The notes beneath the pieces are model-generated. The model was not told where the DNA came from, did not search any database, and was given only the letters and a program-made list of their open reading frames with translations. From the NCBI RefSeq assembly GCF_002177135.1, contig NZ_MWPH01000006.1, positions 5,955 through 69,954 of the forward strand: 64,000 nucleotides of DNA, read 5' to 3'. Positions 16,319-38,268 of this stretch are shown one piece after another. The translations under genes and the position numbers were made by a program. The stretch's first letter is position 1. Each line of letters opens with the position of its first letter. Source of the DNA: Natronolimnobius baerhuensis (GTDB taxonomy: Archaea > Halobacteriota > Halobacteria > Halobacteriales > Natrialbaceae).

Positions 16319-16346
16319 CATCCCACCAGAGACAGTGTGCACGTAC

Positions 16347-19802: not shown

Positions 19803-19940
19803 GCTGCTCGCCGAGGCCCGGCCGAGCCGGGTACGTGGTCAATCTTGTTTCCAGTTCCTCCAAATCTGTTACTGAGAGCGATCTTTCTTCAAGGAAAGAA
19901 TCCCGCCGTTCATGGCGAGGAGGAAGTCACCAAAGCAGGA

Positions 19941-22900
19941 CTACTCCTGCTGATACTGGTCATCGTATAGTTCCTGCAGCGCGTCCCGCAGGTAGAGAAC
20001 CGACTCATACCGGTCGACCTTCTCTTTTGCCATGGCTGTTAACAGAATCTCGTCGAGTTCCGGCGGGACATCTGCGAGTTCGCTCGGCGGCTGCGGCGCT
20101 TCTGTGAGCACCTTGTTCATCACACGAGCCGGTTGTCCCTCGAACGGCGGCCGGCCCGTGAACAATTCATAGTAGACTGAGCCGAGTTGGCACACATCCG
20201 TAATATCGTCAGCCGACCCGTAGTTATCGTCGAACTGCTCGGGAGCTGCATAGTGTGGAGACAATCCTTCGATACTCTTGGAGTGCTCGAGCAGGTGTTT
20301 CGAGAGTCCCCAATCGGCTACTTTCGGGACATCCCAACCGTCTGTGACCGATCGAAAGAGGATGTTTTCGGGTTTTAAATCGAGGTGGGCGACGCCCCGT
20401 CGGTGAGCGTGTCGCACTGCCTCTGCCGTGACGATCGCCGTCCACAACGCGTGATCAAACGGCATTTCTCCGGCCCGATCGCCAACATGGCCGCCGTCCA
20501 TGTGCTCCATGGCGATCCACGGCAACGGTTGTGACCCCCAGTCAATTACGCCAACGATGTGATCGTGGTCGTCGAGTTTCGCCCATGTCTCGGCCTCCTG
20601 TGTGAATTCCTCAACGACTTGGGTACCGATCGTTCCCTGAATACGCGGCTCTTTGAGTGCAACCGTGTGAGTAGTACCGTCGACTGTGACAGTCGCGCAA
20701 TAAACGTCGGCATTACCCCCTCTGCCAATAGACTCATCCCGATCTAGTCGGTCGTATGCGAACTCAAGGTCTGGTGCGCCAGGGATCTCGGTCGCTATCG
20801 TCGAACCGACTGCCGAGACAATCGTTTCCGTCGCCTGTATCCGAGCACCGCTGGACTGGTGGCGGGCGTCCGGCTGCTCGAGCGCAACCGTTGCGACCTG
20901 ATTCGGCTCTCTCATCGTGGGATTTTCAGTTCCGATTCCCAGTGACGCACGCTGTGCTTTGCGAGCGTTGTCGCTTGCCACGCTCTGGAGGTGAGCGAGT
21001 TGATCCGCGTCGTCTGGATCTGCGATTTCGCCCTGAATCTCAACAGTCTCCTCGCCGACAGCTGTGAACGTCTCATATGCGGATTCGTACGATCCGTCCT
21101 CGAACGCCGCGATGCCATCACCGATCCGTTCGTTGATCCGAGTGACTTCTACTTCGGCTTTCCTTGTTTCAACCATCGAAGCGACTGCAGTCAACTCATC
21201 CGTCTCGATGTCGTCCCACGGTTTAGCTCTCGTAGCGGCCGTGGCAGCGACCTCAGCTGCCTCGTCGAATGCATCTGTCGCACGAGCGTATGCCTCGGAC
21301 TCAAGGTGCCGCTCGCCTTCCTCGAGCAGGTACGTTGTACCCTGAATACTGACCGAGAGGTACGCCTCGCGTGCCTCTTGTTTCAGGAAGTCCAGCTGAT
21401 GATCGTCGACTAATCGAACTTCCGAGAACTGTCCCAACACGGAGCCTAACTGTTCCAATGCGTCGTCGTATCCAGCTGGCTCCGCATTGAGAGCCGAGTT
21501 GATACGAGTAACCAGCATTTTCTGTTCCCAATCTGATCCGTTTTCGACAAGTTGCTTGCGGAACCGCTGGTACGGTTCTGTTTCGTAGTCGTGTTCGTTC
21601 GCATGTTCGACAGCCTGGTCCAGTGATGCGTTCGCGCTCCGAACATGCTCGACGGCGTTCCGGTAGTTTCCATGGTCAGCTTCGTCCGTCGCTCGCTGGA
21701 GTGAGTTCTCAACCAGCGTCGAGAGCAGATCGAACTCGAGTTCTCGAGCGGTATCCCATTGATCTTCTACCTCTTTGACGTGTGTCCTCAGATTGGGCTG
21801 TTTAGCCCAGTCGACTGCGGCGTTGAGATTCTTGAGTGCCTCCCGTATAGATGGCAGTGCAGCGGAGGGTGACTCCTTGGATGCCGTGTATTTGCCGTCT
21901 GCTAACGCCTTCACTCCGATTTGTCGTAGCGATGTAAACTTCACTTCCGAAAGTGATTTCCTCAGGTCGAATATCTCCGATTGGTCTATCGTAGAAACGA
22001 GGTGTACTGATTCCTCAACATCTTCTAATTCGGAGAGACCCACTTCGGCGTGTTCCAATGCTAGATGATAGTCGCCGGTACGTTCGGCGTCCTTTCCCTC
22101 CTGATAGCAGTTGTCTGCTACCTTGTATCCGCCGATTTTCGCCTCCAGAATTTGCTCTTGTATATATTCTTTTGCTTCGCCAACTTCATCTTGATTCTCC
22201 TGCGGTGCAAAGCTATATTGGGTTCCATCGTCGAGTTCGAATGATAGCTTATCGAAAAATATCGGTTTTTTCGAGGACGGATTTTGTATTTCCTCGTAGT
22301 CAAAGTACTGGATTTCGTCTCCCTTTTTCCTGCCAATGAGATAGATAAGACGTTCGTTCGTGACGATAAGATGCCGACTTCCTTCCTCATCGTCGCTAAA
22401 TGAGACATGATGCGGCGTTACCTCGCGCCCGCCAGGCTTCGTAATTCGAAATCCTTTTGTCTGATTCCTGAAGAAAAATTCGGGACGCTCCGCAGGTTCA
22501 AAAATCTTGATCGGGGGTTTATCGTACAGATGTTGAGTGAGGAACCCACCAGTATGTGTCAGTTGTTTCGATTGTATTGTCCCGCTCGCAGCCGCTGCTA
22601 GTTCTTCTGGTGTTGAGGGCGTTGGCTGTGGCTTGTCCTGAACGTCTTTCGAGAACGATTCAACCGATGATTCCATTGACGAATCTGTATCGTCATCGAC
22701 TCCATCTCGAGCGTACAGATAATATAGTGGATAGAAACCAATCGTTAGAAAGGTCAGCGTCAGTGTGATGATCCAATGTCGCTCAGTGACTTCGTTTGAG
22801 TGTTGGCTGAGTTGCTGCTTGTCTGTAGCGATATAGTATCCCGCAACAGGTAATCCGAAAAGAAACATGACACCCAGTAGAGGCACTAGTCCAGGAACAA

Positions 22901-22979
22901 TCACAGCACTGATCCACGACGCGAAGTACAGCGCGACCGTCCATTTGACATAGCGGTATGCACTGTCCGTTTCAGTCAT
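19941..22979 (-). CDS. membrane-anchored Hanks-type Ser/Thr protein kinase, paralog 2
   Basis: N-terminal TM helices and long helical middle. C-terminal 'IGRGGNADVYCATV', 'VALKEP', 'HRRGVAHLDLKPENILF', 'DWGLSKHLL', 'SPHYAAPEQF'. Confidence 0.85.
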   Translation of the reverse strand: MTETDSAYRYVKWTVALYFASWISAVIVPGLVPLLGVMFLFGLPVAGYYIATDKQQLSQHSNEVTERHWIITLTLTFLTIGFYPLYYLYARDGVDDDTDSSMESSVESFSKDVQDKPQPTPSTPEELAAAASGTIQSKQLTHTGGFLTQHLYDKPPIKIFEPAERPEFFFRNQTKGFRITKPGGREVTPHHVSFSDDEEGSRHLIVTNERLIYLIGRKKGDEIQYFDYEEIQNPSSKKPIFFDKLSFELDDGTQYSFAPQENQDEVGEAKEYIQEQILEAKIGGYKVADNCYQEGKDAERTGDYHLALEHAEVGLSELEDVEESVHLVSTIDQSEIFDLRKSLSEVKFTSLRQIGVKALADGKYTASKESPSAALPSIREALKNLNAAVDWAKQPNLRTHVKEVEDQWDTARELEFDLLSTLVENSLQRATDEADHGNYRNAVEHVRSANASLDQAVEHANEHDYETEPYQRFRKQLVENGSDWEQKMLVTRINSALNAEPAGYDDALEQLGSVLGQFSEVRLVDDHQLDFLKQEAREAYLSVSIQGTTYLLEEGERHLESEAYARATDAFDEAAEVAATAATRAKPWDDIETDELTAVASMVETRKAEVEVTRINERIGDGIAAFEDGSYESAYETFTAVGEETVEIQGEIADPDDADQLAHLQSVASDNARKAQRASLGIGTENPTMREPNQVATVALEQPDARHQSSGARIQATETIVSAVGSTIATEIPGAPDLEFAYDRLDRDESIGRGGNADVYCATVTVDGTTHTVALKEPRIQGTIGTQVVEEFTQEAETWAKLDDHDHIVGVIDWGSQPLPWIAMEHMDGGHVGDRAGEMPFDHALWTAIVTAEAVRHAHRRGVAHLDLKPENILFRSVTDGWDVPKVADWGLSKHLLEHSKSIEGLSPHYAAPEQFDDNYGSADDITDVCQLGSVYYELFTGRPPFEGQPARVMNKVLTEAPQPPSELADVPPELDEILLTAMAKEKVDRYESVLYLRDALQELYDDQYQQE

Positions 22980-23269
22980 AGTGATATCACCTATTCAGAT
23001 TTGCTACATATAATACTTTACTTTGTGATAAGTTATTAGATGGCTACATCGAGAGAACAGCAAATCGACTGCGAGACTGACTTCCCATAGGTGTGTTCCG
23101 TGCGGGGACTGTTACGACCTGTCCACCAGGTATTGCCGGAAAATGATTCTCTGCAAACCGATGGAGCATCTATCATTTATACTTATATTAATGGAAGCTC
23201 ATATTAAAGAACGGAAATAAGCCCCCCAGAGCCCTGTAATGCTGACTTTGCCGATTATCATAATTTCAT

Positions 23270-23282
23270 CGAAAGTATAAAT
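23270..23282 (+). promoter_or_regulatory. BRE/TATA promoter 'cgaaagtataaat' for kinase 3 (leaderless)
   Basis: 28 bp upstream of ATG 23310. Context 'tcatcgaaagtataaa' is conserved with 16301-16318. Confidence 0.55.
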
Positions 23283-23309
23283 AGATCCGTACTTCCAATT
23301 ATCCTGTAT

Positions 23310-26300
23310 ATGGGGATCGACGAACGCGATCAACACTGGTTCACTGCCGATATCACGCACTTTGTGTATAGTATCTTTTCGCCAATTACAGTTCCATTTG
23401 TCCTCCTAGCGGCGATGATTTGGCTACTCATTGTTGGCATTCCAGGTTTTATGCTCGAGTGGATTATCAAGCTTATTTTCACGGAGAACGGACTCGTTCA
23501 CTCACTCTATATGATCGTTTTCCTGTTTGTGATAGTCGTCGTTTTTGTCGGCTATTTCGCATTCGCTCTCATCGAATATCTCACCGCAGAGCCGATGCCG
23601 GACCAAATGCCAACGAGCACGGCCGGCTATTGCTGGTGGATTGGTCTTCCTGTTCTCGCTGCCGTCGCCGTGCTTGCCGGCCTCGCCGCCGGTGTCGAGA
23701 TTGAGTCGACAAGACAGTTCCTCGTCCTAGTCCCGCTATTCGTGTTCGGTTCAGTGCTCCTGATGACGCGAACGCTAAGTGTCGTTCGACGGTCGAAATC
23801 CTCGGCCGACGTCACCGTCACCGTCACTACCGTCGTCATCGCCTACATACTCGTCGCTGGCGTCCTCGAGGCGGTCGGCCTGTTCGTGGTTGCCCCGTTC
23901 CTCTTCGAACCAATAAGCGAGTGGCCCGGCATGGCATCGGTGTATGTTCCGCTGTTGCTTGTCCTCCTCGTCATAATCGAACCGCTCGACGCACTCGGAC
24001 TGCTGGATTCATCCTCGACTGACGGCTCCACTGATCCCGGTGAAATGGCGGCGAATGTCCCAGTTTTGTTCGACGCTGAAACGGGAGAAGGCCTGTTTAT
24101 GTCGCTAGCGCTCACGTTTGTCGTCCTTCCCGCTCTCGTCGCAGTCGTCGAATCATCGTGGCATGGATATCAAATCACATCCGAGATACGTGCCCGGAAA
24201 AACAGGCTCAAGGCGCGGAAACGTAAATTCGAAGAGACTTCTAGGGAGTTCAACTCCGCCATCGAAGATGCCGAAGCTGCACTCGAGGACGACCGTTACG
24301 ACGAAGTCGAACGGCTGGTCATCGACGTTGCACAGGCCAAGCTGGATCGGTGCCAGCGACTGCACAAGAACTACGATATTCCGGAGTCCGTTCCTGCCAG
24401 TGCTCGAATCGAGAATTTGAAGATTAAACTGAAGCGACACGAGGCCAAACAAGAACTCGAAGACCTGATCCAACGACAAGAGGAACTCATCGAGGAGTAC
24501 CGCCAGAACCGCGATGCAGCCAACTACGAGAAGGCGAAAGGATCGCTGCGTCGAGCAAAGTCGGTCGCAAGCGACTGTACAAACACAGCGCGGGAACACG
24601 GCCTCAAGTACTCGCTACCAATGTCGAGCAATGACATTGACGCCGCGATAGCTACCCTCGAGGCGACAGAGACCGAAGCCGAACTCGAAGACATCGTCGC
24701 CGAATACGAGTCCCATCTGTCGACGTTCGACGACGCGATTTGGAGCGGTGACCTGGATCGCTGCGATACGCTGTTTGAGACGCTACGTCAGAAACGCTCG
24801 CAGATCGAGCAACTCGAGCACAAACTAGGGACCAATGCCGAGGCGCTCTCGAGTGCTGATCGGGATCTCGCTGACCGGATTCACCACGCAGCCCAGCAGA
24901 CGATTAGGACGAAATTCGATGTGGGTGTTGGGACCGGTGAGTGCGACGGCGCGTTTGCCTGGCCCGAGGCAAGAGCACGCTACCTGCTCGCTTCGGGGAG
25001 ACAAGCTGCTGAAAATGGCGAGTATCGAGACGCAATCTCGCGAGCAGAGACCGTCGCCACCGACCTCTTACAGCACCTCGACGACGGGTCCCCCAGCGAA
25101 CGGAATCGAGACTCACTGGGAGACCTGATAGGGACCGCCCGAGATCACAAGGGAGAGTGGGAACGACAGTTGATCGTCCGACAGATCAACGACGCGGTCG
25201 ACAGAGAACCGGACGAGTACGAGGAGGCGAGCAAAATCCTCACAAGTGCACTGTCGCGGATCGATCAGACGAATGCGTTTAGCGAGGAAGAGCGAGCGAT
25301 CATCGAGCAGGATACACGCAAAGCGTATGTTACCGTTCGCTCGGACGGGGCATCTGCGCTCGTCGATAACGGTAACGAGCGGCTCGAAGTTGGCGACGAA
25401 TCGTCTGCAGCCACCCATTATGAGGACGCGATGACAACTCTTGGGGACCTCGGCGATACAGTCGCAGAGTGGAACGACGTTAACAATGAACCCATTGATG
25501 AACAGTACAACGCAGTCGAACAGAAATACGTTGAAACACAGACGACACTGCTTGAGGAACGTATCCGGCTGGGAATCGACCAGTTCGACGCCGACGAGTA
25601 TGACGCTGCTCTCGAGACGTTCCGAAACGTGACGAACGAGACCGAGACTGTCCGCGAGCGTGTCGAGACCGAATATGATCGTCTATTGTACCTCCAAGAC
25701 CTCACCGAAGCGAACGCGAAGACGACCCAGCGCACCTCGCTGGGTATTGGGACCGGATCGAAATCCCTACAAGAACCCGAACAGGATGCGGCTGGCACAA
25801 CCCACCGGGAGCATATGGACTCGAGCATCAACTCCACCTCACAGGCCGCCGGCGCACCCGGAAACGACATATTTGACTCGATTGAGGCATCGCTTCCCGA
25901 CGAGATAGACTACATGCAACTCGAGAAAGAGACGGTGCTTGGGTCGGGTGGAAACGCGACCGTCCACAAAGCCAGGCTGGATAGCGATGAAACCCAGTAT
26001 ATCGCCCTCAAAGAGCCCCAGGTTCCTGAAGGAACAGTCGACAAGGCACTGTTCGACCGATTCAGAGACGAAGCGGAAAACTGGAAGCAAGTCGACGATC
26101 ACCCTCATATCGTCAGCGTCCTCGATCACGGTATGCACACGCTGCCCTGGATCGCAATGGAGTATCTCGACGGCGGTCATCTCGGTGACCGCGTCGGACA
26201 ACTCGAGACTGAGCACGCGTTGTGGACCGCACTAGCAGTCACCAGAGCGATCAAACATGCTCATCGACCTGGCATTACCCACCTCGACATCAAACCTGAA

Positions 26301-26741
26301 AACATCCTCTTCAAATCGGTCGATGGATACTGGGACATTCCCAAAGTGGCCGACTGGGGGCTAGCGAATCATTTGCTCGACCGTCCGGATGCCGTCGAAG
26401 GACTGTCACCGCAGTACGCTGCTCCGGAACAGTTTGATCCCGATATCTTTGGCGACACCGATCTCGAGACGGATATCTATCAACTCGGAGTCGTCTTCTA
26501 CGAACTGTTTACCGGAACGCTGCCGTACGAGGGTGACCGGTACAAGGTGTTGCAGAACGAACCGGAGAGAACGCCAACGCCTCCGAGTGAACTCGCAGAC
26601 GTACCACCAGAACTCGACGACGTGCTTCTGAAAGCACTGGCCCCGGAGAAAGCGGACAGGTACGAGAACGTCGCCTTCCTCGAGCAGGAATTAGAAGTGC
26701 TCTTTGAATCGCTGGTCAACGACGCGAGTCCCCAGCGTTGA
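23310..26741 (+). CDS. membrane-anchored Hanks-type Ser/Thr protein kinase, paralog 3 (recent duplicate of paralog 1)
   Basis: Same architecture as paralog 1. The C-terminal ~800 aa are ~90% identical to 16347-19802. The kinase domain is near-identical. Confidence 0.85.
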   Translation: MGIDERDQHWFTADITHFVYSIFSPITVPFVLLAAMIWLLIVGIPGFMLEWIIKLIFTENGLVHSLYMIVFLFVIVVVFVGYFAFALIEYLTAEPMPDQMPTSTAGYCWWIGLPVLAAVAVLAGLAAGVEIESTRQFLVLVPLFVFGSVLLMTRTLSVVRRSKSSADVTVTVTTVVIAYILVAGVLEAVGLFVVAPFLFEPISEWPGMASVYVPLLLVLLVIIEPLDALGLLDSSSTDGSTDPGEMAANVPVLFDAETGEGLFMSLALTFVVLPALVAVVESSWHGYQITSEIRARKNRLKARKRKFEETSREFNSAIEDAEAALEDDRYDEVERLVIDVAQAKLDRCQRLHKNYDIPESVPASARIENLKIKLKRHEAKQELEDLIQRQEELIEEYRQNRDAANYEKAKGSLRRAKSVASDCTNTAREHGLKYSLPMSSNDIDAAIATLEATETEAELEDIVAEYESHLSTFDDAIWSGDLDRCDTLFETLRQKRSQIEQLEHKLGTNAEALSSADRDLADRIHHAAQQTIRTKFDVGVGTGECDGAFAWPEARARYLLASGRQAAENGEYRDAISRAETVATDLLQHLDDGSPSERNRDSLGDLIGTARDHKGEWERQLIVRQINDAVDREPDEYEEASKILTSALSRIDQTNAFSEEERAIIEQDTRKAYVTVRSDGASALVDNGNERLEVGDESSAATHYEDAMTTLGDLGDTVAEWNDVNNEPIDEQYNAVEQKYVETQTTLLEERIRLGIDQFDADEYDAALETFRNVTNETETVRERVETEYDRLLYLQDLTEANAKTTQRTSLGIGTGSKSLQEPEQDAAGTTHREHMDSSINSTSQAAGAPGNDIFDSIEASLPDEIDYMQLEKETVLGSGGNATVHKARLDSDETQYIALKEPQVPEGTVDKALFDRFRDEAENWKQVDDHPHIVSVLDHGMHTLPWIAMEYLDGGHLGDRVGQLETEHALWTALAVTRAIKHAHRPGITHLDIKPENILFKSVDGYWDIPKVADWGLANHLLDRPDAVEGLSPQYAAPEQFDPDIFGDTDLETDIYQLGVVFYELFTGTLPYEGDRYKVLQNEPERTPTPPSELADVPPELDDVLLKALAPEKADRYENVAFLEQELEVLFESLVNDASPQR

Positions 26742-26833: not shown

Positions 26834-28372
26834 CTACGGTTCAATCGTTCCGAACAAACCAACCGCTTTGCGTCGCCGATAGAGATATAATAGGAACGTC
26901 AATGCATAGGCGATAAGGCCGATGTAATAGAGGTAGCGCCGCGGCGACCACTCGATCCGCTCACTCTGTTGAAACAGTACCATCTCCTTGTTCCAAGCGT
27001 AGAAGAATCCGATGATAGAACCAAGTATGATCACTGCACCGCCGTCAGTGCCGCTTGCGCCGCCAAGGATGAAGGCCGGGAACGACCCGTATAGTATATG
27101 ATGCGTATGAAGCGTACCGAAATCGGTCTCGATTACTGCTGACGAAACGCGTTGTGCTGGCGTGGGTTCGGTTGGTGATTGTTGCGAGGGCGATTCGGAC
27201 GTAGAACGCGAGTTCGGTTGTTCAACACCGGTGTCAGCTCCCGTATTGGGACGGGTTGTATCACGCCTGTCTGTTTCTTTGTCATTATTCGAAACCGATG
27301 GATCACCAGGATTCGTTATCGTCGTTCCACTGTTCGTGCCGGCCTGATCGGTTGATGAAACTGTACCGCGCTGAGTTGAAGTGGACGCTGATGTCGAGTC
27401 GCTGGTGTTCTGTGAAGGTGTACTTCGAGGAGCTGCCATCGATTCGGCCGGGTCGTTGCCGAGTGCCAACTCGAGCAAACGGTTGAGTTCGCGTTTGAAG
27501 TCAAGAATTGACTCGTACCGATCAGATTTGTCCTTTGTGAGTGCGCGCATGAGCGCGCTGTCGGTTCCCTCGGGGAGACCATCAACTCGTTCACTGGGTG
27601 GTATCGGTTCCGACTCGAGGACGTCATGCATGACGGTCGCGGCAGATCCAGTAAACGGTGGTTCGCCGACGAGCGCGGCGTACACAACCGCACCAGTTGC
27701 ATAGATATCTGTGTAGTCGTCGGTATGCCCGTAGGTTTCGTCATCGAACTGTTCGGGGGCGGCATAGTGTGGCGACAGTCCTTCGATGCTCTGAGAGTGT
27801 TCAAGCAGCATCTTCGCAAGTCCCCAATCAGCGACTTTTGGAACATCCCACGAACCCGGCTCCGTCTCTGCGAACAAGACGTTTTCCGGTTTGAGATCGA
27901 GATGGGCAATACCTCGCCTGTGAGCGTGACGGACCGCACGAGCGATGCAGACGCCGATCCACAGCGCTTCTGCGGGCTCGAGATCGCCGAGTCGCGCATC
28001 GAGACTGCCGCCATCCATGTATTCCAGTGCAATCCATGGGAGCGGCTGACTCTCATAACCGAGCACGCTGACGATGTGATCGTGGTCGTCGAGTTTCTCC
28101 CACGTCTCCGCCTCTGCAGTGAACTGTGAAAGGGATTCGACGTCTAGTGTCCCCTGCATTCGTGGCTGTTTCAGCGCACAGATGTCAGGCCCCTCACCCT
28201 TGAATTGAACCTTGGTGACATCGGCGTTCCCCCCTGATCCAATCGCCTCGAGTTCTTCGAAATCTGTGAAGTCAGCGTCGATCCGGACAGGATCGGTATC
28301 AGCAACGTCCGGACGTAAATCCTTGTGTACCCCCGAAGACATATCTCTGTTCTCGAATACTGAGAGAACCAT
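26834..28372 (-). CDS. Hanks-type Ser/Thr protein kinase with inverted architecture (N-terminal kinase, S/T/P-rich linker, C-terminal TM helices)
   Basis: 'IGSGGNADVTKV', 'ALKQP', 'HRRGIAHLDLKPENVLF', 'DWGLAKMLL', 'SPHYAAPEQF'. Low-complexity STP/Q linker. Two or three C-terminal hydrophobic helices. Confidence 0.85.
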   Translation of the reverse strand: MVLSVFENRDMSSGVHKDLRPDVADTDPVRIDADFTDFEELEAIGSGGNADVTKVQFKGEGPDICALKQPRMQGTLDVESLSQFTAEAETWEKLDDHDHIVSVLGYESQPLPWIALEYMDGGSLDARLGDLEPAEALWIGVCIARAVRHAHRRGIAHLDLKPENVLFAETEPGSWDVPKVADWGLAKMLLEHSQSIEGLSPHYAAPEQFDDETYGHTDDYTDIYATGAVVYAALVGEPPFTGSAATVMHDVLESEPIPPSERVDGLPEGTDSALMRALTKDKSDRYESILDFKRELNRLLELALGNDPAESMAAPRSTPSQNTSDSTSASTSTQRGTVSSTDQAGTNSGTTITNPGDPSVSNNDKETDRRDTTRPNTGADTGVEQPNSRSTSESPSQQSPTEPTPAQRVSSAVIETDFGTLHTHHILYGSFPAFILGGASGTDGGAVIILGSIIGFFYAWNKEMVLFQQSERIEWSPRRYLYYIGLIAYALTFLLYLYRRRKAVGLFGTIEP

Positions 28373-28540: not shown

Positions 28541-29257
28541 TCAGAGTGAACTAAGGAGGACACTCACATTGTCACTTCCGCCGTTTTCGTTCGCTCGTTC
28601 AACGAGCAGGTCAGCGCCCTTTGCGAGTGTCGGCGCTTCGTGGATGAGTTCGTGGATTGTTTCGTCGGCGACTTCCTCGGTCAACCCATCCGAACAGAGC
28701 AATAGCGTGTCTGCTCCAGAAACTTCGTAAAAATCTGGCTCAACCGTCTCATCTGTTCCAAGTGCTTGTGAGATTACGTTTCGCTGTGGATGCTCCGCAG
28801 CTTCTTCCGACGTGAGTTTCCCTTGATCGACCAACTCTTGGACTAACGACTGATCAGTGGTTACCTGCTCGATTGAACTCTCGGTGAGGGTGTATGCCCG
28901 ACTGTCGCCAACGTTCGCGAGGAGTACCTCACCGCTCCGAACGAGTGCAACGACCACTGTTGTTCCCATTCGTGAACGCTCGTTACACTGGTCGTGGATC
29001 GCTCGATTGGCGTCCACAATTGCTGATTCCAACAGATCCTTCCACTCGGTCCGTGGTGGTATCGAATCGCCACCAAGCGTCTCTTCGAGCGTGTCGATTG
29101 CCAGTTGACTCGCGACGTCGCCAGCGGCGTGGCCGCCCATCCCGTCAGCGACCGCGAGGAGTTTCGTATTATCTGTCAGCTGCGTTCCAAACAGGGTATC
29201 CTCGTTGTGTTCGCGTTGACGGCCGACGTCAGTTCGGGTTACAAAAGTCTCGTTCAT
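28541..29257 (-). CDS. PP2C-family (PPM) Ser/Thr protein phosphatase
   Basis: 'GRQREHNEDTLF', 'LLAVADGMGGHAAGDVASQLAI', 'GDSRAY', 'LLLCSDGLT' and the C-terminal 'GGSDNVSVL' are canonical PPM motifs. Confidence 0.85.
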   Translation of the reverse strand: MNETFVTRTDVGRQREHNEDTLFGTQLTDNTKLLAVADGMGGHAAGDVASQLAIDTLEETLGGDSIPPRTEWKDLLESAIVDANRAIHDQCNERSRMGTTVVVALVRSGEVLLANVGDSRAYTLTESSIEQVTTDQSLVQELVDQGKLTSEEAAEHPQRNVISQALGTDETVEPDFYEVSGADTLLLCSDGLTEEVADETIHELIHEAPTLAKGADLLVERANENGGSDNVSVLLSSL

Positions 29258-29269
29258 ATCACAGAGGTA

Positions 29270-30085
29270 TTAATTAGAGTTTGCTGGGTCACAGTGCGGA
29301 CAGGCATCCTCATAGGCCAGATCGTGAACCTGACAGAACTGTTTCGTGGCGGTTTCGGACGGTGCTGTATCGCCACCCGGTTCCGATGGCTGGTTCGAAC
29401 CGAGGTCGTACCCGCAGTTAGGACAGTACAATGCAGTGGCGCTGATCTCGCTCCCACATTTGATGCAAAACTGTGTATCGCTCGTGGTCTCTTCGGACCC
29501 CGGTTGCGGTTCGGGAGTAGACGTCTGATTGTTGACCGAGATCGTATCCGACGGGTTCGACTCGCTTCCGATGCTCGAGCGATTGAAGACATTATCGTCG
29601 CCGACCTCGGCCGGTTCTTCGCCACCGATGTCCGTACGGTTAAAGACGTTGTCGTCACCGACGGTAGTACTGTTATCCTCACCCACCACGATTTTCCCGT
29701 CCCCGGTGTTGACAAATTTCGCATCTCGCTCGGTCGTCAACTGTAACGTAGTCTGGTAGCCAATCGAGATCGTAGCGTCGCTCGAGACCGTCTCAATACG
29801 TCCGTTGGCGACCTCTCGCTCCATACCTTTCGAAGTGACGGTGATGCCGTTAGAGTTCCCGTTGTTGTGAATCTCGATCCGTTCCTCGCGTGGCTTGAAC
29901 GCGACTGGCGCGGTATCTCCCTTTTTACGAGAGACAGTAATGTCAGCGACACCCAATGGCACGACTTTACCGTCTACTTCGGCAACGACTTGTTCGCCTC
30001 GTTCAGGGTCGCGATACACCTCTGTCCATGATTCGACAGAAATTTTCCCCGTATCCGACGAATCGATTGTTACGTACCCCCTCAT
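29270..30085 (-). CDS. zinc-ribbon protein with degenerate FHA-like N-terminal domain
   Basis: C-terminal 'FCIKCGSEISATALYCPNCG' and 'FCQVHD...CPHCD' are CxxC pairs. The N-terminal beta-rich region ('ITVSRKKGD...IEIHNNGNSNGITVTS') loosely matches the FHA 'SR.HA...S.NGT.VNG' pattern. Internal repeat 'VGDDNVFNR(T/S)(D/S)IG' x2. Confidence 0.55.
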   Translation of the reverse strand: MRGYVTIDSSDTGKISVESWTEVYRDPERGEQVVAEVDGKVVPLGVADITVSRKKGDTAPVAFKPREERIEIHNNGNSNGITVTSKGMEREVANGRIETVSSDATISIGYQTTLQLTTERDAKFVNTGDGKIVVGEDNSTTVGDDNVFNRTDIGGEEPAEVGDDNVFNRSSIGSESNPSDTISVNNQTSTPEPQPGSEETTSDTQFCIKCGSEISATALYCPNCGYDLGSNQPSEPGGDTAPSETATKQFCQVHDLAYEDACPHCDPANSN

Positions 30086-30317: not shown

Positions 30318-31112
30318 TCACCCACTCCGTTCGTGCAGTCGCCGGATGCGCGTTGCAAGTTCACGCACGCGTTTCTGGCGATCCTCAGCAAGGGAGTTGT
30401 CCGCGGGTACAATTTCGAGTTGCTCGACGACCCCATCGACCTCCTCATAGAGTTCATCGTAGGCGGCATCAGAGACTGGATTAGCCGCCAGAAAGTCGCG
30501 CAGTTCTGTTGCTCGCTGGTGGCAGGCTTCCGGTGATTCTCCGGCAGCGGCCTCGAGATGCTCGGCTAGCGAGACTCCGAGGTAGCCAACGGCGTTTCCA
30601 ACGTCGTCGGTCTCCGTTTCATCAGTGCCCGAACCAGTACCTGCACTACCAGCACTATTTTCGATAGTAACATCCTGTAATCGCTGACGTGCACGTCGTC
30701 GCTCGTCTTCGTACGTGGCATTTCCAGCGATTTCAGCGAGCGTCTGGCCGATACGCTCTTGCTCGGTTGCCTTGATCTCAGGATACAATCCCCGAAGCGT
30801 ATCGATGGCGTCGAGTCGTTCGCTCGTATTAGTTCCGTCCTCGGCAAGCGTACAGAAGAGCGGAACAACGACCGACGCAGCAACGGTTGGATCCCGATCG
30901 AAAAGCGACTGCAGCGTCTTGCGTGCGAGTTCCCGCTCAGCGCGTCCCGTCGAGTCGGTCACTGTCGTTCGCAGCGTCTCGAGGATGCGGCGTCGCTCGC
31001 GCTCGTCAGCCGTCGGATACAGCGTCGCGAGCGATTCGATTGCCTCCTGTCGGTCCTGCGAATACGGTGATTCGAGGGCCGTCTCTCGGTGGGTATCGAT
31101 TGCTTCCTGCAT
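30318..31112 (-). CDS. HEAT/PBS-lyase-like repeat protein
   Basis: Repeating helix-pair units of ~30 aa ('AIESLATLYP', 'ILETLRTTVTD', 'AIDTLRGLYPE'). ATGA overlap with the upstream gene at 31112. Confidence 0.6.
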   Translation of the reverse strand: MQEAIDTHRETALESPYSQDRQEAIESLATLYPTADERERRRILETLRTTVTDSTGRAERELARKTLQSLFDRDPTVAASVVVPLFCTLAEDGTNTSERLDAIDTLRGLYPEIKATEQERIGQTLAEIAGNATYEDERRRARQRLQDVTIENSAGSAGTGSGTDETETDDVGNAVGYLGVSLAEHLEAAAGESPEACHQRATELRDFLAANPVSDAAYDELYEEVDGVVEQLEIVPADNSLAEDRQKRVRELATRIRRLHERSG

Positions 31113-32890
31113 CAGATGTTCTCCCCGCAGTTCGTACAGAAATCGTTCTCGGCCGGTACCGCCGTCTCACAGCTGGGACAGACGACATCCGTCTCGGAGG
31201 TGGTGCCGCTGCCGCTATTGCTACCACCGCCGTCACCACCCTGGACAATGGTGGTATCGCCGCCGCTGCTGCCACCTGCGTCCGGAATAATAACATTATC
31301 TGACGTGTCCTCTGCAGCCGCGCGGCCAGTCTCGCCCATGTTATCCATGGCCGACTCAGTCGTCTCCTGCATCCGATCCATCGAGTCGCCCATCATCTCT
31401 TTCATCTCCTCACGGAATTCCTTCTGGTCATCGACGCGCTGGCGTTCTTTCTCGGCACTGTTTGCCTCCTGGCGGGCCTTCGCGAGTTCGTCGCTATCTT
31501 GGGCACCCAGTGCTTCGAGTTGGGCGGGCGAGAGATTCCCGGCCTTTTCCATCTCAGCTAACTCCGCAACTGACTCATCAACGCCATCCATGCTCGCGAG
31601 CGTACCAAGGTCGACGTCGTCGCGGGCTTCCAGTTGCTCCTTCTCGACTTCGACCTCGTGGCGCTCCTTTTCCATCTCGAGGTCTTGCTCGCGTTGCTCG
31701 CGGTCGAGTTTCTGTTGGTCTTTCTTCGACTTGACGTCGATCAGATCTTCGATTTCGGTGATGTCCTGCTCGTGTTCAAGGTCGCGGCGGTCGACTTCGT
31801 TCTCCTTGCGCGTGGTCTTGGCGTGTTCTTCGTGTTCGACTTGCTCGCGCTCGGCTGTATGTCGGTGCCGGCGCTGCATGTCGTCTTTCTCGTGGTCGTA
31901 CTCGAGATCCTGGGTCTCAATCTGGTGGTCAGCGGATTGTTTCGTGGTTTCGCGCCGGACCCGCTGTTTCTCGTCGTGGACCGTATCGCTGGTGTCACGC
32001 TCGCGTTCGCGACGGTCGAGTTCCGCGCGGCGGTCCTCAAGGTCTTCCGTCTCGGCACGGATCTCAACGTCTTTCTTCCCCTCGCGAATCTCGTCTCGGT
32101 CATCCTCATACTCAAACGACCGTAGGTCGACCAGCGCCAGTCCGTTGCGCTCGAAAATCGCCTGACACTGCTGAGCGACATCCGATTGCAGCGTTGCCGT
32201 CAGTTCGCGATTTCCGTACAATTCCTCATGCTCGTATGAAGAAAGCGTCGCCGCCAACTCCCCCCGAACGGCGTCGCCGAGCAACCGCTCAAGCGTATCA
32301 GTTGTAACCGCATCCCGATCCGTGACCATGCTGGTGAAGAACTGCTCGGTATCCTCGAGAGTGAAGACGAGTTCGACGGTCACATCGACGGGATACTCCG
32401 ACGCCGTCCGGACGCCCTCAATCGGTAGGGTCAAGACCGTGTTTCCATCTGGAACTAACACGACGGATCGATCTTGGCCAGTGCGGAAATCGACGATCTT
32501 CTGCCCGAGTGAGTCAAGCGTGTGGTTCCCTGGCCCGATCTCTTCGGTCACCGAACCGTCCTCGAGCAGGAGTGCCCGCGTTCCCTCTTCGATGCTGATC
32601 TCCTCTTTCTGACGCAGTCGGTTTAGGAAACCGCCAGATTGTAGCGCCGCACCGTCTACTCGTCGAGCCAGTTCCGTTGGCCGCAACTGGATTGGACCTG
32701 ACTCAGAATCGTTTGTCGATTTGTTATCGGACCGTGCGTCGAGGGACTCACCACAGCTCGGACAGAACGACCCACTTGCCGAAACGCTGTCACCGCAACT
32801 CGGGCAACTCTCGCTGACCGAACAGCCACAGTCGCGGCAGAAATTTGCCGCATCGGGGAGTTCGGTCCCACAGTCGGGACAGATCGTCAT
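31112..32890 (-). CDS. flotillin-like protein: N-terminal Zn-ribbons, SPFH/band-7 domain, ~270-aa charged coiled coil, C-terminal Zn-ribbon
   Basis: 'CPDCG...CRDCG...CPSCG...CPSCG' N-terminal. 'VVLVPDGNTVLTLPIEGVRTASEYPVDVTVELVF...TDTLERLLGDAVRGELAATL...LALVDLRSFEYED' matches the SPFH core. E/R/D/K-rich heptads follow. C-terminal 'CPSCE...CTNCG'. Confidence 0.7.
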   Translation of the reverse strand: MTICPDCGTELPDAANFCRDCGCSVSESCPSCGDSVSASGSFCPSCGESLDARSDNKSTNDSESGPIQLRPTELARRVDGAALQSGGFLNRLRQKEEISIEEGTRALLLEDGSVTEEIGPGNHTLDSLGQKIVDFRTGQDRSVVLVPDGNTVLTLPIEGVRTASEYPVDVTVELVFTLEDTEQFFTSMVTDRDAVTTDTLERLLGDAVRGELAATLSSYEHEELYGNRELTATLQSDVAQQCQAIFERNGLALVDLRSFEYEDDRDEIREGKKDVEIRAETEDLEDRRAELDRRERERDTSDTVHDEKQRVRRETTKQSADHQIETQDLEYDHEKDDMQRRHRHTAEREQVEHEEHAKTTRKENEVDRRDLEHEQDITEIEDLIDVKSKKDQQKLDREQREQDLEMEKERHEVEVEKEQLEARDDVDLGTLASMDGVDESVAELAEMEKAGNLSPAQLEALGAQDSDELAKARQEANSAEKERQRVDDQKEFREEMKEMMGDSMDRMQETTESAMDNMGETGRAAAEDTSDNVIIPDAGGSSGGDTTIVQGGDGGGSNSGSGTTSETDVVCPSCETAVPAENDFCTNCGENI

Positions 32891-33104: not shown

Positions 33105-34307
33105 TTATTCATCCCAATCAGCGAGACTCGAGTCAACTGACTCGACTGCCGCTGTAAGGTGGTGCTGGGTTACTGGCTGGATCTCCGACTCATCGCGGGC
33201 CTCCTTGAGCGCGTCTCTAGCGGCCGTCGTCGCGACGAGCTCGAGGTCGCTCGCGGCGTAGCCCTCGGTTAGGCCTACGATTTCGTCCCAGTCAATCGTC
33301 TCAGTGAGGACCGGCCGATCACGGAGATGAACGCGCAAGATGGCTTCGCGTGCGGTCTCGTCCGGTGGCGGTACCTCAATTCGCTCGTCGAACCGGCCAG
33401 AGCGCTTGATAGCGTCATCGACAGCCTCCAGCAGATTCGTCGCCGCAAAAACAACGACGTCTTCGCCCTGGACATCTGAGAGTTCGGTCAGTAATTGATT
33501 GACCATCTGCTGTTGGCTTTGGGTCGTCTGTGCGCCGCCAGTTCGCTGACCAGCAATCGCATCGATTTCGTCGATGAAAACCAAACATGGCTGGTTCTCG
33601 CGGGCAACGGTGAACAACTCGGCGACGTTGTCTGCCGCTTCTCCGACTAAGGAACTTGACAGGTCTGACGGCGTCACCTCAATGAAATTGTAGCCGAGTT
33701 TACCAGCAAGTGCCTGTGTAATGTAGGTCTTGCCCGTCCCCGGCGGCCCGTACAACAACACGCCGTTGACGACGCCGAGTCCGTATTCCTCGTAGAGGTC
33801 GGGCCGCTCGAGTGGGTCGACAATGGTGTCGATTACGGTTTGTTTCAAGTCAGTCATCCCGCCGACATCATCAAAATCCAACTCAGGTGGATCCTTCAGA
33901 TATGCCTTCGCGTCGACCTCTTTGTTCTCATCGCCGTTGCCGGTCCCACCTGGTGGGCTGGCGTTTGCAGTTCCACCTGGTTCAGGTCCGCCCGATTGAG
34001 TTCCGGACCGGTCATCAGAGAACTCCGCGGTAGTCTCACTCTCCCCATCAACGACACTCACCTCACCCGATGCAATTGCCTCGAGTGTGTCGGCAGCCTC
34101 ATCGAGGTTCTTTGCAAGTGATCGCCGTTTCTCAGCGAGTTTCTCGGCCGACTCAAGGTCAGCGATCTGATCGACAATCTCGGCAGTTTTACGGTAGTGT
34201 TCGGCAGCCTTGGCGGGTTCTTTCCGTTCACGGAATTTCTCTGCGAGTTGGCGGTGGCGCTCGTAGTCGTCCTCAAGGATTTCTTTGTGTGCCCCGTCTT
34301 CTAACAT
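33105..34307 (-). CDS. Vps4/CdvC-like AAA+ ATPase (MIT-like N-terminal helical domain, disordered linker, single classical AAA domain)
   Basis: Walker A 'GPPGTGKT'. Walker B 'LVFIDEIDAI'. SRH 'ATNLLEAVDDAIKRSGRFDERIEVPPPD'. The N-terminal 85 aa form a three-helix pattern with an A/Y/E periodicity reminiscent of MIT. Confidence 0.8.
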   Translation of the reverse strand: MLEDGAHKEILEDDYERHRQLAEKFRERKEPAKAAEHYRKTAEIVDQIADLESAEKLAEKRRSLAKNLDEAADTLEAIASGEVSVVDGESETTAEFSDDRSGTQSGGPEPGGTANASPPGGTGNGDENKEVDAKAYLKDPPELDFDDVGGMTDLKQTVIDTIVDPLERPDLYEEYGLGVVNGVLLYGPPGTGKTYITQALAGKLGYNFIEVTPSDLSSSLVGEAADNVAELFTVARENQPCLVFIDEIDAIAGQRTGGAQTTQSQQQMVNQLLTELSDVQGEDVVVFAATNLLEAVDDAIKRSGRFDERIEVPPPDETAREAILRVHLRDRPVLTETIDWDEIVGLTEGYAASDLELVATTAARDALKEARDESEIQPVTQHHLTAAVESVDSSLADWDE

Positions 34308-34402: not shown

Positions 34403-35083
34403 TTAGATGTCGAACTCCTGTTCGTCGATTTCGACTTCCTCGAGGTCGAGGTCATCCTCGATTGCAGCGTCATCGCTGGTGTCAGCGGAGACTTCGGCTT
34501 CCATCTCGATGTCGACTTGCTCTTCTGAGATTTCGGAGGCAGCCATCTCTTGCATCAACTGCTCTTCTTCGCTGACGTCCATTGCGATGTCGTCTTCCAT
34601 GATGGGGATATCCAGTGCCTCCTGAATCTCTTCCATGTCCTCCATCTCGATGCCGAACGCAGCCATCCGCTCCATGATCTCGCTTTGGATCTCTTGAGCA
34701 TCAGCGTCATCCATCGCATTATCGAGCGCGATGTCGTCCTCGTTTTGTACTTCCATGATCTCGCGCATTCCCTGAATAGAAAGGATAGTACCGAGTTTGA
34801 CGCTGTTTGCGCGATACTTCTTTTTCTTGATCGCATACTTTTTCTTCTCAAATTTGGCTTTCTGTGCGTACTTTTTACGCTTGAGATCACTCACCTCCGC
34901 ACCTTCTTTGAGGAGTTTCTTGTATGTCCGACTATGTTGATCCATCTCATTCTCGAGTTTTTTCAGCTTGTGCTCGAGTTTCGTGATGTCTTTTCGGATG
35001 TCGGTATGACTGTAGACATCCTCGTCGAGGAGCGTCTGTCCTGTGCCGCCGAATCGGTCTTGAACCCAATTTCGAAGTTCCAT
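34403..35083 (-). CDS. Snf7/ESCRT-III-like (or PspA/Vipp1 superfamily) coiled-coil protein
   Basis: Basic N-terminal helical hairpin ('LKRKKYAQKAKFEKKKYAIKKKKY' resembles CHMP4 'LKRKKRYEKQLAQ'). Strongly acidic C-terminal half ('DIALDNAMDDADAQEIQSEIMERM' resembles CHMP4 'DIDKVDELMQDIADQQELAEEIS'). Adjacent to the Vps4-like ATPase. Confidence 0.55.
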   Translation of the reverse strand: MELRNWVQDRFGGTGQTLLDEDVYSHTDIRKDITKLEHKLKKLENEMDQHSRTYKKLLKEGAEVSDLKRKKYAQKAKFEKKKYAIKKKKYRANSVKLGTILSIQGMREIMEVQNEDDIALDNAMDDADAQEIQSEIMERMAAFGIEMEDMEEIQEALDIPIMEDDIAMDVSEEEQLMQEMAASEISEEQVDIEMEAEVSADTSDDAAIEDDLDLEEVEIDEQEFDI

Positions 35084-35537: not shown

Positions 35538-35704
35538 AAAATATGGTGCTACAAGATGGTAGTAGGTGTAGAGGATGAGCGCAACAACGAATCGACGACC
35601 AGATGACCCTCCCTCCGTTCCGTCAACAAACCGATTCGGGACGCGTCGTTCGCGGGCACAACCGCGTGAGAAGACCCGCCAAGACCGTTCAGTCACTACG
35701 ACCG

Positions 35705-36253
35705 ATGTCTAACACTGACCCATCGAGCGACGAGACGTCCACCGACACGGAGTATCTGTTCGTCGTCGACTACGAGGACGACGCCGAGCGAAAGCGCATC
35801 GAGTATCTCTTCAATAACTGGGACGACGGCGAAATCGCAAAACCAAGCGGGCTGGTTCGTGTCGGTCAATCGGTATCCCACGACGAACTGTACCAAGATC
35901 TCGTCGCGAAGGTACCCGAAGAGCAAGTCCAGTCGTATCGTCTCGAACCGGTCGAGACAGACGTCGCCCCGGAGACGCTCACCGTTGAACAATCGATTGA
36001 TGCACCAGCAGATGCAGTCGAAACGTTCGTCGAATACATATTCTCGAAAAGAAAAGCAGTCCTCCAGTCGGCGCCACATAATGAGTACGAGGTCTACACA
36101 AAAAAAGGACGTGCGGACGTAACGTACCGACTGGACGCAGACGATGAATCAACCGACGTAACTGTCACGATCACCGGCCACGCTCCCGCACCCGGCTTCC
36201 TCGCCAACTTCTTCGAGACAGAACTCAAGGCATACGCGGACAGTCAATCCTAA
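35705..36253 (+). CDS. hypothetical acidic protein
   Basis: 182 aa from ATG 35705 (the track ORF starts at 35603). No recognised motifs. Co-directional with the next gene, 14-bp gap. Confidence 0.5.
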   Translation: MSNTDPSSDETSTDTEYLFVVDYEDDAERKRIEYLFNNWDDGEIAKPSGLVRVGQSVSHDELYQDLVAKVPEEQVQSYRLEPVETDVAPETLTVEQSIDAPADAVETFVEYIFSKRKAVLQSAPHNEYEVYTKKGRADVTYRLDADDESTDVTVTITGHAPAPGFLANFFETELKAYADSQS

Positions 36254-36267
36254 CCAACACTCCACTC

Positions 36268-38268
36268 ATGAACTGTGCACGACGATTTCAGGATCTTGTT
36301 CGGGACCGAGACGTTGTTCTCGAGGAAGATCTGGCAGCGCTGAAACGCCAAAGTGAACGAGGACGTATCGAGCGGTACAATACGATCAAATCCGATGAGG
36401 CGACGTTCCAGTCGGCATTTACTGGCGACTGCCGAGAGTTTCTGACGCAGTCCGAGCGCAACCGCGCCCGCGGAGAATTCCGCCTTGCACGGTTGCTCAT
36501 TGCAGCCAGTTTCTACGACGATGATGAGAACCAATTCCCGCCGTCGATGGCCGACGACTTCGCGAACGCTGCCCTCGAGGCAGTCGTGGACTTTGAACGG
36601 TTCAAGCGCTTCGACGCGCTCTCGACGAACCAGATCGAAGAGCACATCCGGCGGATGGACGGCGAAGTGTACGAACTTGTTGTCGAGTACACATCGACGC
36701 AGCTAGCGACTGTCGAAGAGTTGCTCGAAGAGCCCGATGTCCAGCAGGACCTGATCGAGCGACTGCTTACACGCTACGAAGAGCGTCGCGAGAAAATTCG
36801 GCAAGGCTTTTTCACCTACGTCGAGACTCACGGTCTCGAGCACATGGTCGCCGAAATCGAGGCGGCCGTCGAGGCCGTCGCCAACGCCTCTGACACACGA
36901 GAAACGATCCACGAGCAACGCCAGGATGGCCCAGGGGACACATCATTGCGTCTCGACGGCAACCTGCGGCGTCGCACGCGAAAACTGGAGTCAGAATTGG
37001 GAGCTGCCGAAGCCGGTCTCGACGGTCAAAGCGACATCGACCACCTCCGTAAGCAGGTTGCTAACCTCACCGACACGCAGCAAACGGCGGTGACAGAACT
37101 CGAGGACCGCATCGACAAGGCGAGTGACCTCAAAGATCGCATCGACGCAGAGATTGAACGCCTCCAACAGACGCACGGTGATGTCGCCGACGCTAATCGC
37201 AAGGAGGTCGCCGACGCGACAGCCGACCTCATCGAGACCGAACTCGAGAATCTCGAAGCCGAGCGTGATGATCTTCTGACGGAGATTGATCACCTCAAGC
37301 GCGAGCGTGAGTTGCTTGAAGCGACTCGTAGTCGTCTGGACGAACGCCAAGGAACACTTACAGAGCCAATCGATAGTGATGTCGAAGCCGCGCTTGGACC
37401 CAACGTGGAGACCGGACTGGACGGCGACGATGTTGTTACCGCATCGGTTGCGTGTCTGCAGGAACTGGACTACCTCGGTCGCTTCGATATCTCGATGCGG
37501 GATGCCACGAGCATCACAACTGACGCGTCCGGCACCGAGTTTGAGGTTCCTGATAATTACTGGGACGACCGGAGCGAGCGGCGCAACGAACGGACACGAC
37601 TGGCAGATCTGCTCGAGGATGGCGACCCAACCGCCGTCGAGCAGTACCCCGTCAACCGGAGCGCGCGCTACGAGATCACCAACTCTCAGTACTTCGGTTT
37701 CGCCCGCGAAACAGAGATGATACTCGAAGCGCGAGTCTGTGCACATCTCATGGCGTACGCGACCACCGGGTTCGACGCGGCGCCGGCAGATCTCGACGAT
37801 GTGCTGTCCGTCCTCAACGACGTGATTTACGAAGCAGAGCAGCGGGACATCACGTATCTGCTCGGAATTGCATCCCCGACTGGCTGGACTGAGCGCGTTA
37901 TTGAACAACTGCAGGGAGAGGGGCAAAACGTGACCCGAACCCGAATGAGTCAAAACGTCGGTCTCTGTCTCGTCGATCTCCAAGACGGCTCCGTACTGTA
38001 CGACAAATCAGATTCCGTTGTCGCGGAGAACGCTCACCTCTTCGAACCACCACTTGAGAGCGAGCGTGTCACAAACTGTGTCTCAACCCTCCGCACCGAG
38101 TACGTTGACGATCTCGGCTGTGAGACAGTACTGCTGTGTGACATCGTTGAACACCACGACTATGACCCACACATTGTCGACCGAGCGTTTGACAAGCTAG
38201 AGCGTGATGGAACCGGCCACCAATTCTACGTCGAGGAGCTCGGATTGGCGTTAGCCGTCGGAACCTAG
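36268..38268 (+). CDS. hypothetical large acidic coiled-coil protein with globular C-terminal domain
   Basis: 666 aa. Central ~250-aa E/R/D-rich heptad region ('LEAERDDLLTEIDHLKRERELLEATRSRLDERQ'). No enzymatic motifs recognised. Confidence 0.55.
   Translation: MNCARRFQDLVRDRDVVLEEDLAALKRQSERGRIERYNTIKSDEATFQSAFTGDCREFLTQSERNRARGEFRLARLLIAASFYDDDENQFPPSMADDFANAALEAVVDFERFKRFDALSTNQIEEHIRRMDGEVYELVVEYTSTQLATVEELLEEPDVQQDLIERLLTRYEERREKIRQGFFTYVETHGLEHMVAEIEAAVEAVANASDTRETIHEQRQDGPGDTSLRLDGNLRRRTRKLESELGAAEAGLDGQSDIDHLRKQVANLTDTQQTAVTELEDRIDKASDLKDRIDAEIERLQQTHGDVADANRKEVADATADLIETELENLEAERDDLLTEIDHLKRERELLEATRSRLDERQGTLTEPIDSDVEAALGPNVETGLDGDDVVTASVACLQELDYLGRFDISMRDATSITTDASGTEFEVPDNYWDDRSERRNERTRLADLLEDGDPTAVEQYPVNRSARYEITNSQYFGFARETEMILEARVCAHLMAYATTGFDAAPADLDDVLSVLNDVIYEAEQRDITYLLGIASPTGWTERVIEQLQGEGQNVTRTRMSQNVGLCLVDLQDGSVLYDKSDSVVAENAHLFEPPLESERVTNCVSTLRTEYVDDLGCETVLLCDIVEHHDYDPHIVDRAFDKLERDGTGHQFYVEELGLALAVGT

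What the first reader, a model, noticed from the sequence alone, without database searches (positions are those of the whole stretch)
33105..34307. Single-AAA ATPase with MIT-like N-terminal three-helix region (Vps4/CdvC-like) rather than CDC48/PAN architecture
It has one classical AAA module (Walker A GPPGTGKT, SRH with two Arg) with a ~85-aa helical N-domain and a ~70-aa disordered G/P/T-rich linker. This is the Vps4 layout, not the double-AAA CDC48 or the coiled-coil/OB N-domain of PAN. Its position directly upstream of the Snf7-like gene supports a disassembly ATPase role.
Basis: partly seen in the sequence, partly recalled or inferred. Interest (0 to 1): 0.7.

Follow-up and report, generated by a model that had tools for sequence, protein, structure and literature searches.

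The report
Haloarchaeal Vps4-like MIT–AAA ATPase, already described

Summary
The ORF at 33105-34307 (minus strand, 400 aa) is real. It has a three-helix N-domain, a variable acidic/Gly-rich linker of about 55 aa, and one intact classical AAA module. The N-domain is MIT-like: its AlphaFold model (pLDDT 94) best matches Sulfolobus Vps4 MIT domains, and sequence profiles give weak MIT hits. There is no CDC48-type N-domain, no PAN-type coiled coil/OB domain and no second AAA module.

The gene lies 95 bp downstream (not upstream) of a 226-aa helical-hairpin protein. That pairing held in all 17 other haloarchaeal loci examined.

The window comes from Natronolimnobius baerhuensis. The protein is WP_087715647.1, listed as arCOG01307 "Vps4" in Makarova et al. 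2024 (mBio 15:e00335-24). That paper uses the N. baerhuensis gene neighbourhood, which by the accessions is this locus, to represent its "Halo_FHA" ESCRT clade. The finding is therefore correct but already known, and only from computation.

Differences from canonical Vps4/CdvC:
- There is no Vps4_C terminal helix.
- Pore loop 1 has Leu where other AAA unfoldases have an aromatic residue (110 of 110 family members).
- The AAA module is about equally distant from CdvC, PAN and VAT.
- Its closest relatives are haloarchaeal tandem-AAA proteins that lack an MIT domain.

My rough tree does not place the module inside PAN or CDC48, and it supports a Vps4 affinity only weakly.

The parts
33105..34307 (-). 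Whole gene: 400-aa MIT-AAA ATPase (WP_087715647.1; arCOG01307 'Vps4' in Makarova et al. 2024)
   Evidence: ORF. Exact match to the accession. Listed in Table S1 of PMC10936438.
34071..34307 (-). Residues 1-79: MIT-like three-helix bundle
   Evidence: AF2 pLDDT 94 with three helices. Foldseek top hits are archaeal, yeast and human Vps4 MIT domains, TM 0.6-0.74. Profile hit to 2v6y, E 0.0036. Pfam MIT hit in 13 of 25 members.
33897..34070 (-). Residues 80-137: variable G/S/E/D/T/P-rich linker
   Evidence: Unconserved and indel-rich in alignment A2. Composition computed.
33153..33896 (-). Residues 138-385: single classical AAA module (large domain plus lid)
   Evidence: Pfam AAA residues 183-313 and AAA_lid_3 residues 338-375. 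Aligns to VAT/p97 D2 from residue 137.
33726..33749 (-). Walker A GPPGTGKT (residues 187-194)
   Evidence: Invariant in A2 and present in 110 of 110 members.
33642..33656 (-). Pore loop 1 S-S-L-V-G (residues 218-222): Leu at the position that is aromatic in Vps4, PAN and VAT
   Evidence: Alignments. S[S/A]LVG in 110 of 110 family members.
33393..33404 (-). SRH arginines R302 and R305 (KRSGRF)
   Evidence: R305 is invariant; R302 lies in a segment that is shortened in about 31 of 110 members.
33105..33152 (-). C-terminal tail ...SSLADWDE plus stop codon. It is short, has a conserved aromatic residue near the end, and lacks a Vps4_C helix.
   Evidence: No Pfam Vps4_C hit, whereas the Vps4, CdvC, spastin and katanin references all hit it. 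Tail statistics.
34403..35083 (-). 226-aa ESCRT-III-like protein (WP_087715648.1, arCOG07402), directly upstream of the ATPase gene
   Evidence: Accession and arCOG. AF2 shows a long helical hairpin and an acidic disordered tail. Weak ESCRT-III similarity. Adjacent to the ATPase gene in 17 of 17 loci.
31112..32890 (-). 592-aa double-zinc-ribbon + SPFH/Band-7 + coiled-coil + zinc-ribbon protein, probably WP_087715646 (arCOG15283)
   Evidence: Pfam DZR, Band_7 and Zn_ribbon. The arCOG table lists an SPFH-family protein of this genome. The accession match is inferred from domain content and accession order, not checked by sequence. Present in 7 of 17 related loci.
30318..31112 (-). 264-aa helical-repeat (HEAT-like) protein
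   Evidence: Weak Pfam helical-repeat hits only. Follows the SPFH gene in L001, L004, L005 and L007; a homologue also lies next to an SPFH gene (preceding it) in L008 and elsewhere in the locus in L010.
29270..30085 (-). 271-aa protein with an FHA-like N-domain and a zinc ribbon, probably WP_087715645 (arCOG13166, 'FHA fused to CdvA-like domain')
   Evidence: Zn_Ribbon_1 at residues 206-228. The N-terminal ~125 aa recur right after the ATPase gene in 10 loci. arCOG table. Pfam FHA itself was not hit here, and the accession match was not checked by sequence.
28541..29257 (-). PP2C-type Ser/Thr phosphatase
   Evidence: Pfam PP2C_2, E 5e-17.
26834..28372 (-). 512-aa Ser/Thr protein kinase with a hydrophobic C-terminus
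   Evidence: Pfam Pkinase, E 1e-31.
16335..26741 (.). Three further large Ser/Thr kinases (1155, 1012 and 1143 aa), each with a C-terminal kinase domain
   Evidence: Pfam Pkinase. Three arCOG03682 kinases of this genome are listed among ESCRT-linked genes; which window genes they correspond to was not checked.
35603..36253 (+). Divergently transcribed arCOG08177 protein (WP_087715649; inactivated Cas2 + TBP-like domain according to the paper). The true start is probably Met35, at 35705.
   Evidence: Conserved in the loci. Published alignment and arCOG.
36268..38268 (+). 666-aa coiled-coil protein, conserved partner of the locus. It is probably the paper's arCOG09748; I did not verify this by accession.
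   Evidence: Homologue present in 16 of 17 loci, usually divergent from the ESCRT-III-like gene. Only weak SMC-like coiled-coil hits.

Best explanation
The gene encodes the Vps4-type ATPase of a haloarchaeal ESCRT-like module, the published "Halo_FHA" system.

Proposed mechanism, all of it inferred from homology:
1. The 226-aa upstream protein is a divergent ESCRT-III subunit that polymerises on the membrane through its basic helical hairpin.
2. Its acidic C-terminal tail carries short conserved motifs (ALDIPIM and SEEExxMxEMAAS). The MIT domain of the ATPase binds these motifs.
3. The flexible linker lets the MIT domain reach the polymer.
4. The AAA module forms a hexamer, engages the tail in its central pore and uses ATP to pull subunits out, remodelling or recycling the polymer.
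5. Thr phosphorylation by the neighbouring kinases, reversed by the PP2C phosphatase and read by the FHA protein, decides when and where this happens.
6. The SPFH protein probably marks a membrane patch.

What the sequence shows directly: the domain architecture, intact ATPase motifs, the MIT-like fold, and strict gene linkage.
For: - Single intact AAA module with Walker A, Walker B, sensor 1 and Arg fingers.
- MIT-like N-domain.
- The ESCRT-III-like gene immediately precedes the ATPase gene in 17 of 17 haloarchaeal loci. The FHA-like protein, PP2C and kinases recur downstream.
- The upstream protein models as a long helical hairpin followed by short helices and an acidic disordered tail.
- hhalign aligns its first long helix in register with ESCRT-III helix 1: P 3e-4, against 0.17 for a reversed control.
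- Identity: WP_087715647.1 and WP_087715648.1 are listed as arCOG01307 Vps4 and arCOG07402 ESCRT-III/Snf7 in PMC10936438. That paper uses the N. baerhuensis gene neighbourhood to represent the Halo_FHA clade.
- In NJ bootstraps the module's nearest group is the whole Vps4/katanin/spastin/CdvC group (49%) or CdvC alone (18%). It nested with a PAN/CDC48 subset in no more than about 3%.
Against: - There is no experimental evidence for any member; two literature searches found only the 2024 computational paper.
- The AAA module is not specifically Vps4-like. NCBIfam scores are PAN 217, FtsH 204, CDC48 195 and CdvC 155 bits. Identities are 36.5% to CdvC, 38.3% to PAN and 38.9% to VAT D2.
- It lacks the Vps4_C helix that the Vps4, CdvC, katanin and spastin references all hit.
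- It lacks the one-residue deletion before the P-loop strand that the Vps4/katanin/spastin references show.
- Pore loop 1 has Leu instead of Trp or Tyr in 110 of 110 members.
Confidence: 0.72

Rival explanations
1. The ATPase is a phospho-regulated general unfoldase or segregase of Cdc48/PAN type. It would extract or unfold phosphorylated client proteins, possibly for the proteasome. In this reading the 226-aa protein is a coiled-coil adaptor or substrate rather than a membrane-remodelling ESCRT-III polymer, and the MIT-like domain is just a TPR-like adaptor-binding module.
For: - The AAA module scores higher against PAN, FtsH and CDC48 models than against CdvC.
- Motifs such as SERQMVNQLLTEL and KRSGRFDERIEVPPPD look like VAT-D2 or PAN.
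- There is no Vps4_C helix.
- An aromatic residue lies in the last five residues in 73 of 110 members, loosely recalling proteasome-docking tails.
- The N-domain profile also hits TPR repeats.
- The ESCRT-III homology of the partner is not statistically significant in my tests.
- The closest AAA relatives are tandem-AAA proteins in unrelated gene contexts.
Against: - The C-terminal aromatic residue is at position -3 or further, not the penultimate Tyr of an HbYX motif.
- The best structural matches of the N-domain are Vps4 MIT domains specifically.
- Linkage to the helical-hairpin protein is strict, 17 of 17.
- An SPFH membrane-scaffold gene sits in the locus.
- In the NJ bootstraps the module nested with a PAN/CDC48 subset in no more than about 3% of replicates.
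Confidence: 0.15
2. The locus is an anti-virus or conflict system. Kinases and an FHA sensor would trigger an AAA ATPase effector, as in IetAS/IteAS-type or kinase-based defence systems, rather than a housekeeping membrane-remodelling machine.
For: - PADLOC hits: the ATPase to IetA (136 bits), the kinase to PD-T4-6 and mad6, and the phosphatase to PDC-M21C.
- The surrounding window has patchy GC content (41-62%) and an Orc1/Cdc6 gene in a low-GC stretch, suggesting a variable region.
- Four kinases are clustered here.
- L003 has a kinase-UvrD fusion nearby.
Against: - The PADLOC hits are generic domain similarities. IetA scores 136 bits, against 217 bits for PAN.
- No protease (IetS-like), nuclease or other toxic effector is linked to the locus.
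- The core gene set is conserved in order across many haloarchaeal genera, on chromosomes in megabase-scale contigs.
- None of the other locus proteins hits a defence model.
Confidence: 0.07

Closest known systems
Halo_FHA-clade Vps4 (arCOG01307) of Makarova et al. 2024, mBio 15:e00335-24
   Same: It is the same protein. WP_087715647.1 is listed there, and the N. baerhuensis gene neighbourhood is that clade's representative. The gene set also matches: ESCRT-III-like (arCOG07402), FHA-CdvA-like (arCOG13166), SPFH (arCOG15283), arCOG08177, kinases and a phosphatase.
   Different: Nothing differs in identity. My additions to what I read of the paper (main-text section 5 and the supplement passages found by search) are the invariant Leu in pore loop 1, the missing Vps4_C helix, the near-equal distance to PAN, VAT and CdvC, and the tandem-AAA relatives that lack an MIT domain.
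Crenarchaeal CdvC / eukaryotic Vps4 (MIT + single AAA; ESCRT-III disassemblase)
   Same: - An N-terminal MIT-type three-helix bundle, a flexible linker and one AAA module.
- The gene lies directly after an ESCRT-III-like gene.
- Like CdvC, it has no beta-domain insertion in the lid (alignment).
   Different: - No C-terminal Vps4_C helix.
- Pore loop 1 is SLVG, not KW(L/M)G.
- The SRH in this protein keeps the two extra residues of the classical clade (KRSGRF, against RRRF).
- It lacks the one-residue deletion before the P-loop strand.
- Only 36.5% identity to CdvC, and 155 bits against a 650-bit cut-off for the CdvC model.
Archaeal Cdc48/VAT (D2 module) and PAN
   Same: These give the highest sequence similarity for the AAA module: VAT D2 174 bits per domain and 38.9% identity, PAN 217 bits and 38.3% identity. 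Classical-clade motif lengths are shared.
   Different: - One AAA module, not two.
- No double-psi-barrel N-domain, and no coiled coil or OB ring.
- No HbYX tail.
- All scores fall far below the family cut-offs.
- It nested with a PAN/CDC48 subset in no more than about 3% of bootstrap trees.
Haloarchaeal tandem-AAA proteins (P0004, P0005, P0007; annotated only as 'AAA family ATPase')
   Same: Each of their two modules is 52-58% identical to the window's AAA module. They share the C-terminal SS(I/L)xxW tail and form a 100%-supported group with the family.
   Different: - They have no MIT domain.
- They have two modules.
- Their pore loops are aromatic (SKYMG, SKWMG).
- Their neighbourhoods lack ESCRT-like, FHA and kinase genes.

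Membership tests
Vps4/CdvC (ESCRT ATPase; arCOG01307 in the sense of Makarova 2024) | N-terminal MIT domain | tested here: met
   - AF2 three-helix bundle, pLDDT 94.
- Foldseek ranks 1-3 are Sulfolobus Vps4 MIT domains (prob 0.99), followed by many Vps4, katanin and MITD1 MIT domains at TM 0.6-0.74.
- Family profile against PDB: 2v6y E 0.0036, 2w2u E 0.072, 4lcb E 0.18.
- Pfam MIT is sub-threshold in 13 of 25 members.
- The window protein alone does not reach Pfam MIT.
Vps4/CdvC (ESCRT ATPase; arCOG01307 in the sense of Makarova 2024) | Exactly one AAA module with intact ATPase motifs | tested here: met
Vps4/CdvC (ESCRT ATPase; arCOG01307 in the sense of Makarova 2024) | Gene neighbourhood encodes ESCRT components (an ESCRT-III gene next to the ATPase gene) | tested here: met
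   The 226-aa arCOG07402 gene is directly upstream in the window and in 17 of 17 related loci. That this partner is ESCRT-III is itself only weakly supported by my tests and otherwise rests on the paper's assignment.
Vps4/CdvC (ESCRT ATPase; arCOG01307 in the sense of Makarova 2024) | C-terminal helix (Pfam Vps4_C), shared by Vps4, CdvC, katanin and spastin | tested here: not met
   No Vps4_C hit at E of 0.1 or below. All five reference proteins hit it. The protein ends about 13 residues earlier than CdvC.
Vps4/CdvC (ESCRT ATPase; arCOG01307 in the sense of Makarova 2024) | Aromatic pore-loop-1 residue (K-W/Y-x-G) | tested here: not met
   S-S-L-V-G, with Leu in 110 of 110 members.
Vps4/CdvC (ESCRT ATPase; arCOG01307 in the sense of Makarova 2024) | AAA module groups phylogenetically with Vps4/CdvC rather than with Cdc48, PAN or FtsH | tested here: inconclusive
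   NJ with 300 bootstraps: nearest group is the whole Vps4/katanin/spastin/CdvC group 49%, CdvC alone 18%, FtsH 27%, PAN/CDC48 subsets no more than about 3%. HMM scores favour PAN, FtsH and CDC48 over CdvC. The published tree includes it among Vps4 but was rooted with Cdc48 only.
Vps4/CdvC (ESCRT ATPase; arCOG01307 in the sense of Makarova 2024) | ATP-dependent disassembly of ESCRT-III polymers through MIT-MIM binding | not testable with these tools
   This needs biochemistry. No experimental paper was found.
CDC48/VAT | Two tandem AAA modules plus a CDC48-type N-domain | tested here: not met
   One AAA domain and a helical N-domain. TIGR01243 scores 195 bits against a cut-off of 803.
PAN / proteasomal ATPases | N-terminal coiled coil plus OB domain, and a C-terminal HbYX motif | tested here: not met
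   The N-domain is a three-helix bundle. The tail is ...ADWDE. TIGR01242 scores 205 bits against a cut-off of 500.
IetA/IteA anti-phage ATPase | Match to the curated model, and a paired IetS protease gene | tested here: not met
   NF042959 scores 133 bits against a cut-off of 510. No protease gene is present in the locus.

The most novel reading that the evidence does not exclude
The Halo_FHA ATPase may not be an orthologue of Vps4/CdvC. Instead, an MIT domain may have been fused independently onto a haloarchaea-specific AAA lineage, the same lineage that gave rise to tandem-AAA proteins without MIT. Its invariant non-aromatic pore loop and missing C-terminal helix would then mean that it remodels its ESCRT-III-like partner differently from Vps4, for example with a weaker grip or without full threading. 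That would make it a convergent "Vps4 analogue".
Probability: 0.2. Interest if true: 0.45.

Novelty: already known. Interest (0 to 1): 0.25.

Why it matters
Haloarchaea divide with FtsZ and were long thought to lack ESCRT machinery. An ESCRT-III/Vps4-like module wired to Ser/Thr phospho-signalling would be a route to studying ESCRT-type membrane remodelling, such as vesicles, membrane repair or protein sorting, in genetically tractable archaea. That point was already made by Makarova et al. (2024) using this very locus. What is still missing is experiment, not discovery. The small additions here matter only as guides for those experiments: the non-aromatic pore loop, the missing C-terminal helix, the ambiguous placement of the AAA module, and the tandem-AAA relatives.

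Tried and rejected
- **Pfam and NCBIfam on the single protein.** No MIT, Vps4_C or family-level hit appeared. MIT showed up only through the family profile and the structure model.
- **Partner protein against Pfam, NCBIfam and PADLOC.** Nothing.
- **Partner family profile against PDB sequences.** Nothing relevant.
- **Exhaustive profile search of 1.84 billion representative proteins.** It gave 88 homologues. None of the 56 I scanned hit Pfam Snf7 or PspA, so no sequence bridge to canonical ESCRT-III was found.
- **hhalign against a small ESCRT-III alignment.** Only helix 1 aligned, at 38% probability.
- **Defence-system reading.** Rejected as the main explanation, because the hits were generic domain similarities only.
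- **HbYX/proteasome-docking idea.** Rejected, because the aromatic residue is not penultimate.
- **Search for the small 2-TM gene** that precedes the operon in other loci: absent from the window.
- **Neighbourhoods of the tandem-AAA relatives.** No ESCRT-like genes.
- **Reference sequences.** They were accepted only after they hit the expected Pfam and NCBIfam models. VAT came from the alignment printed, and FtsH from the E. coli record.
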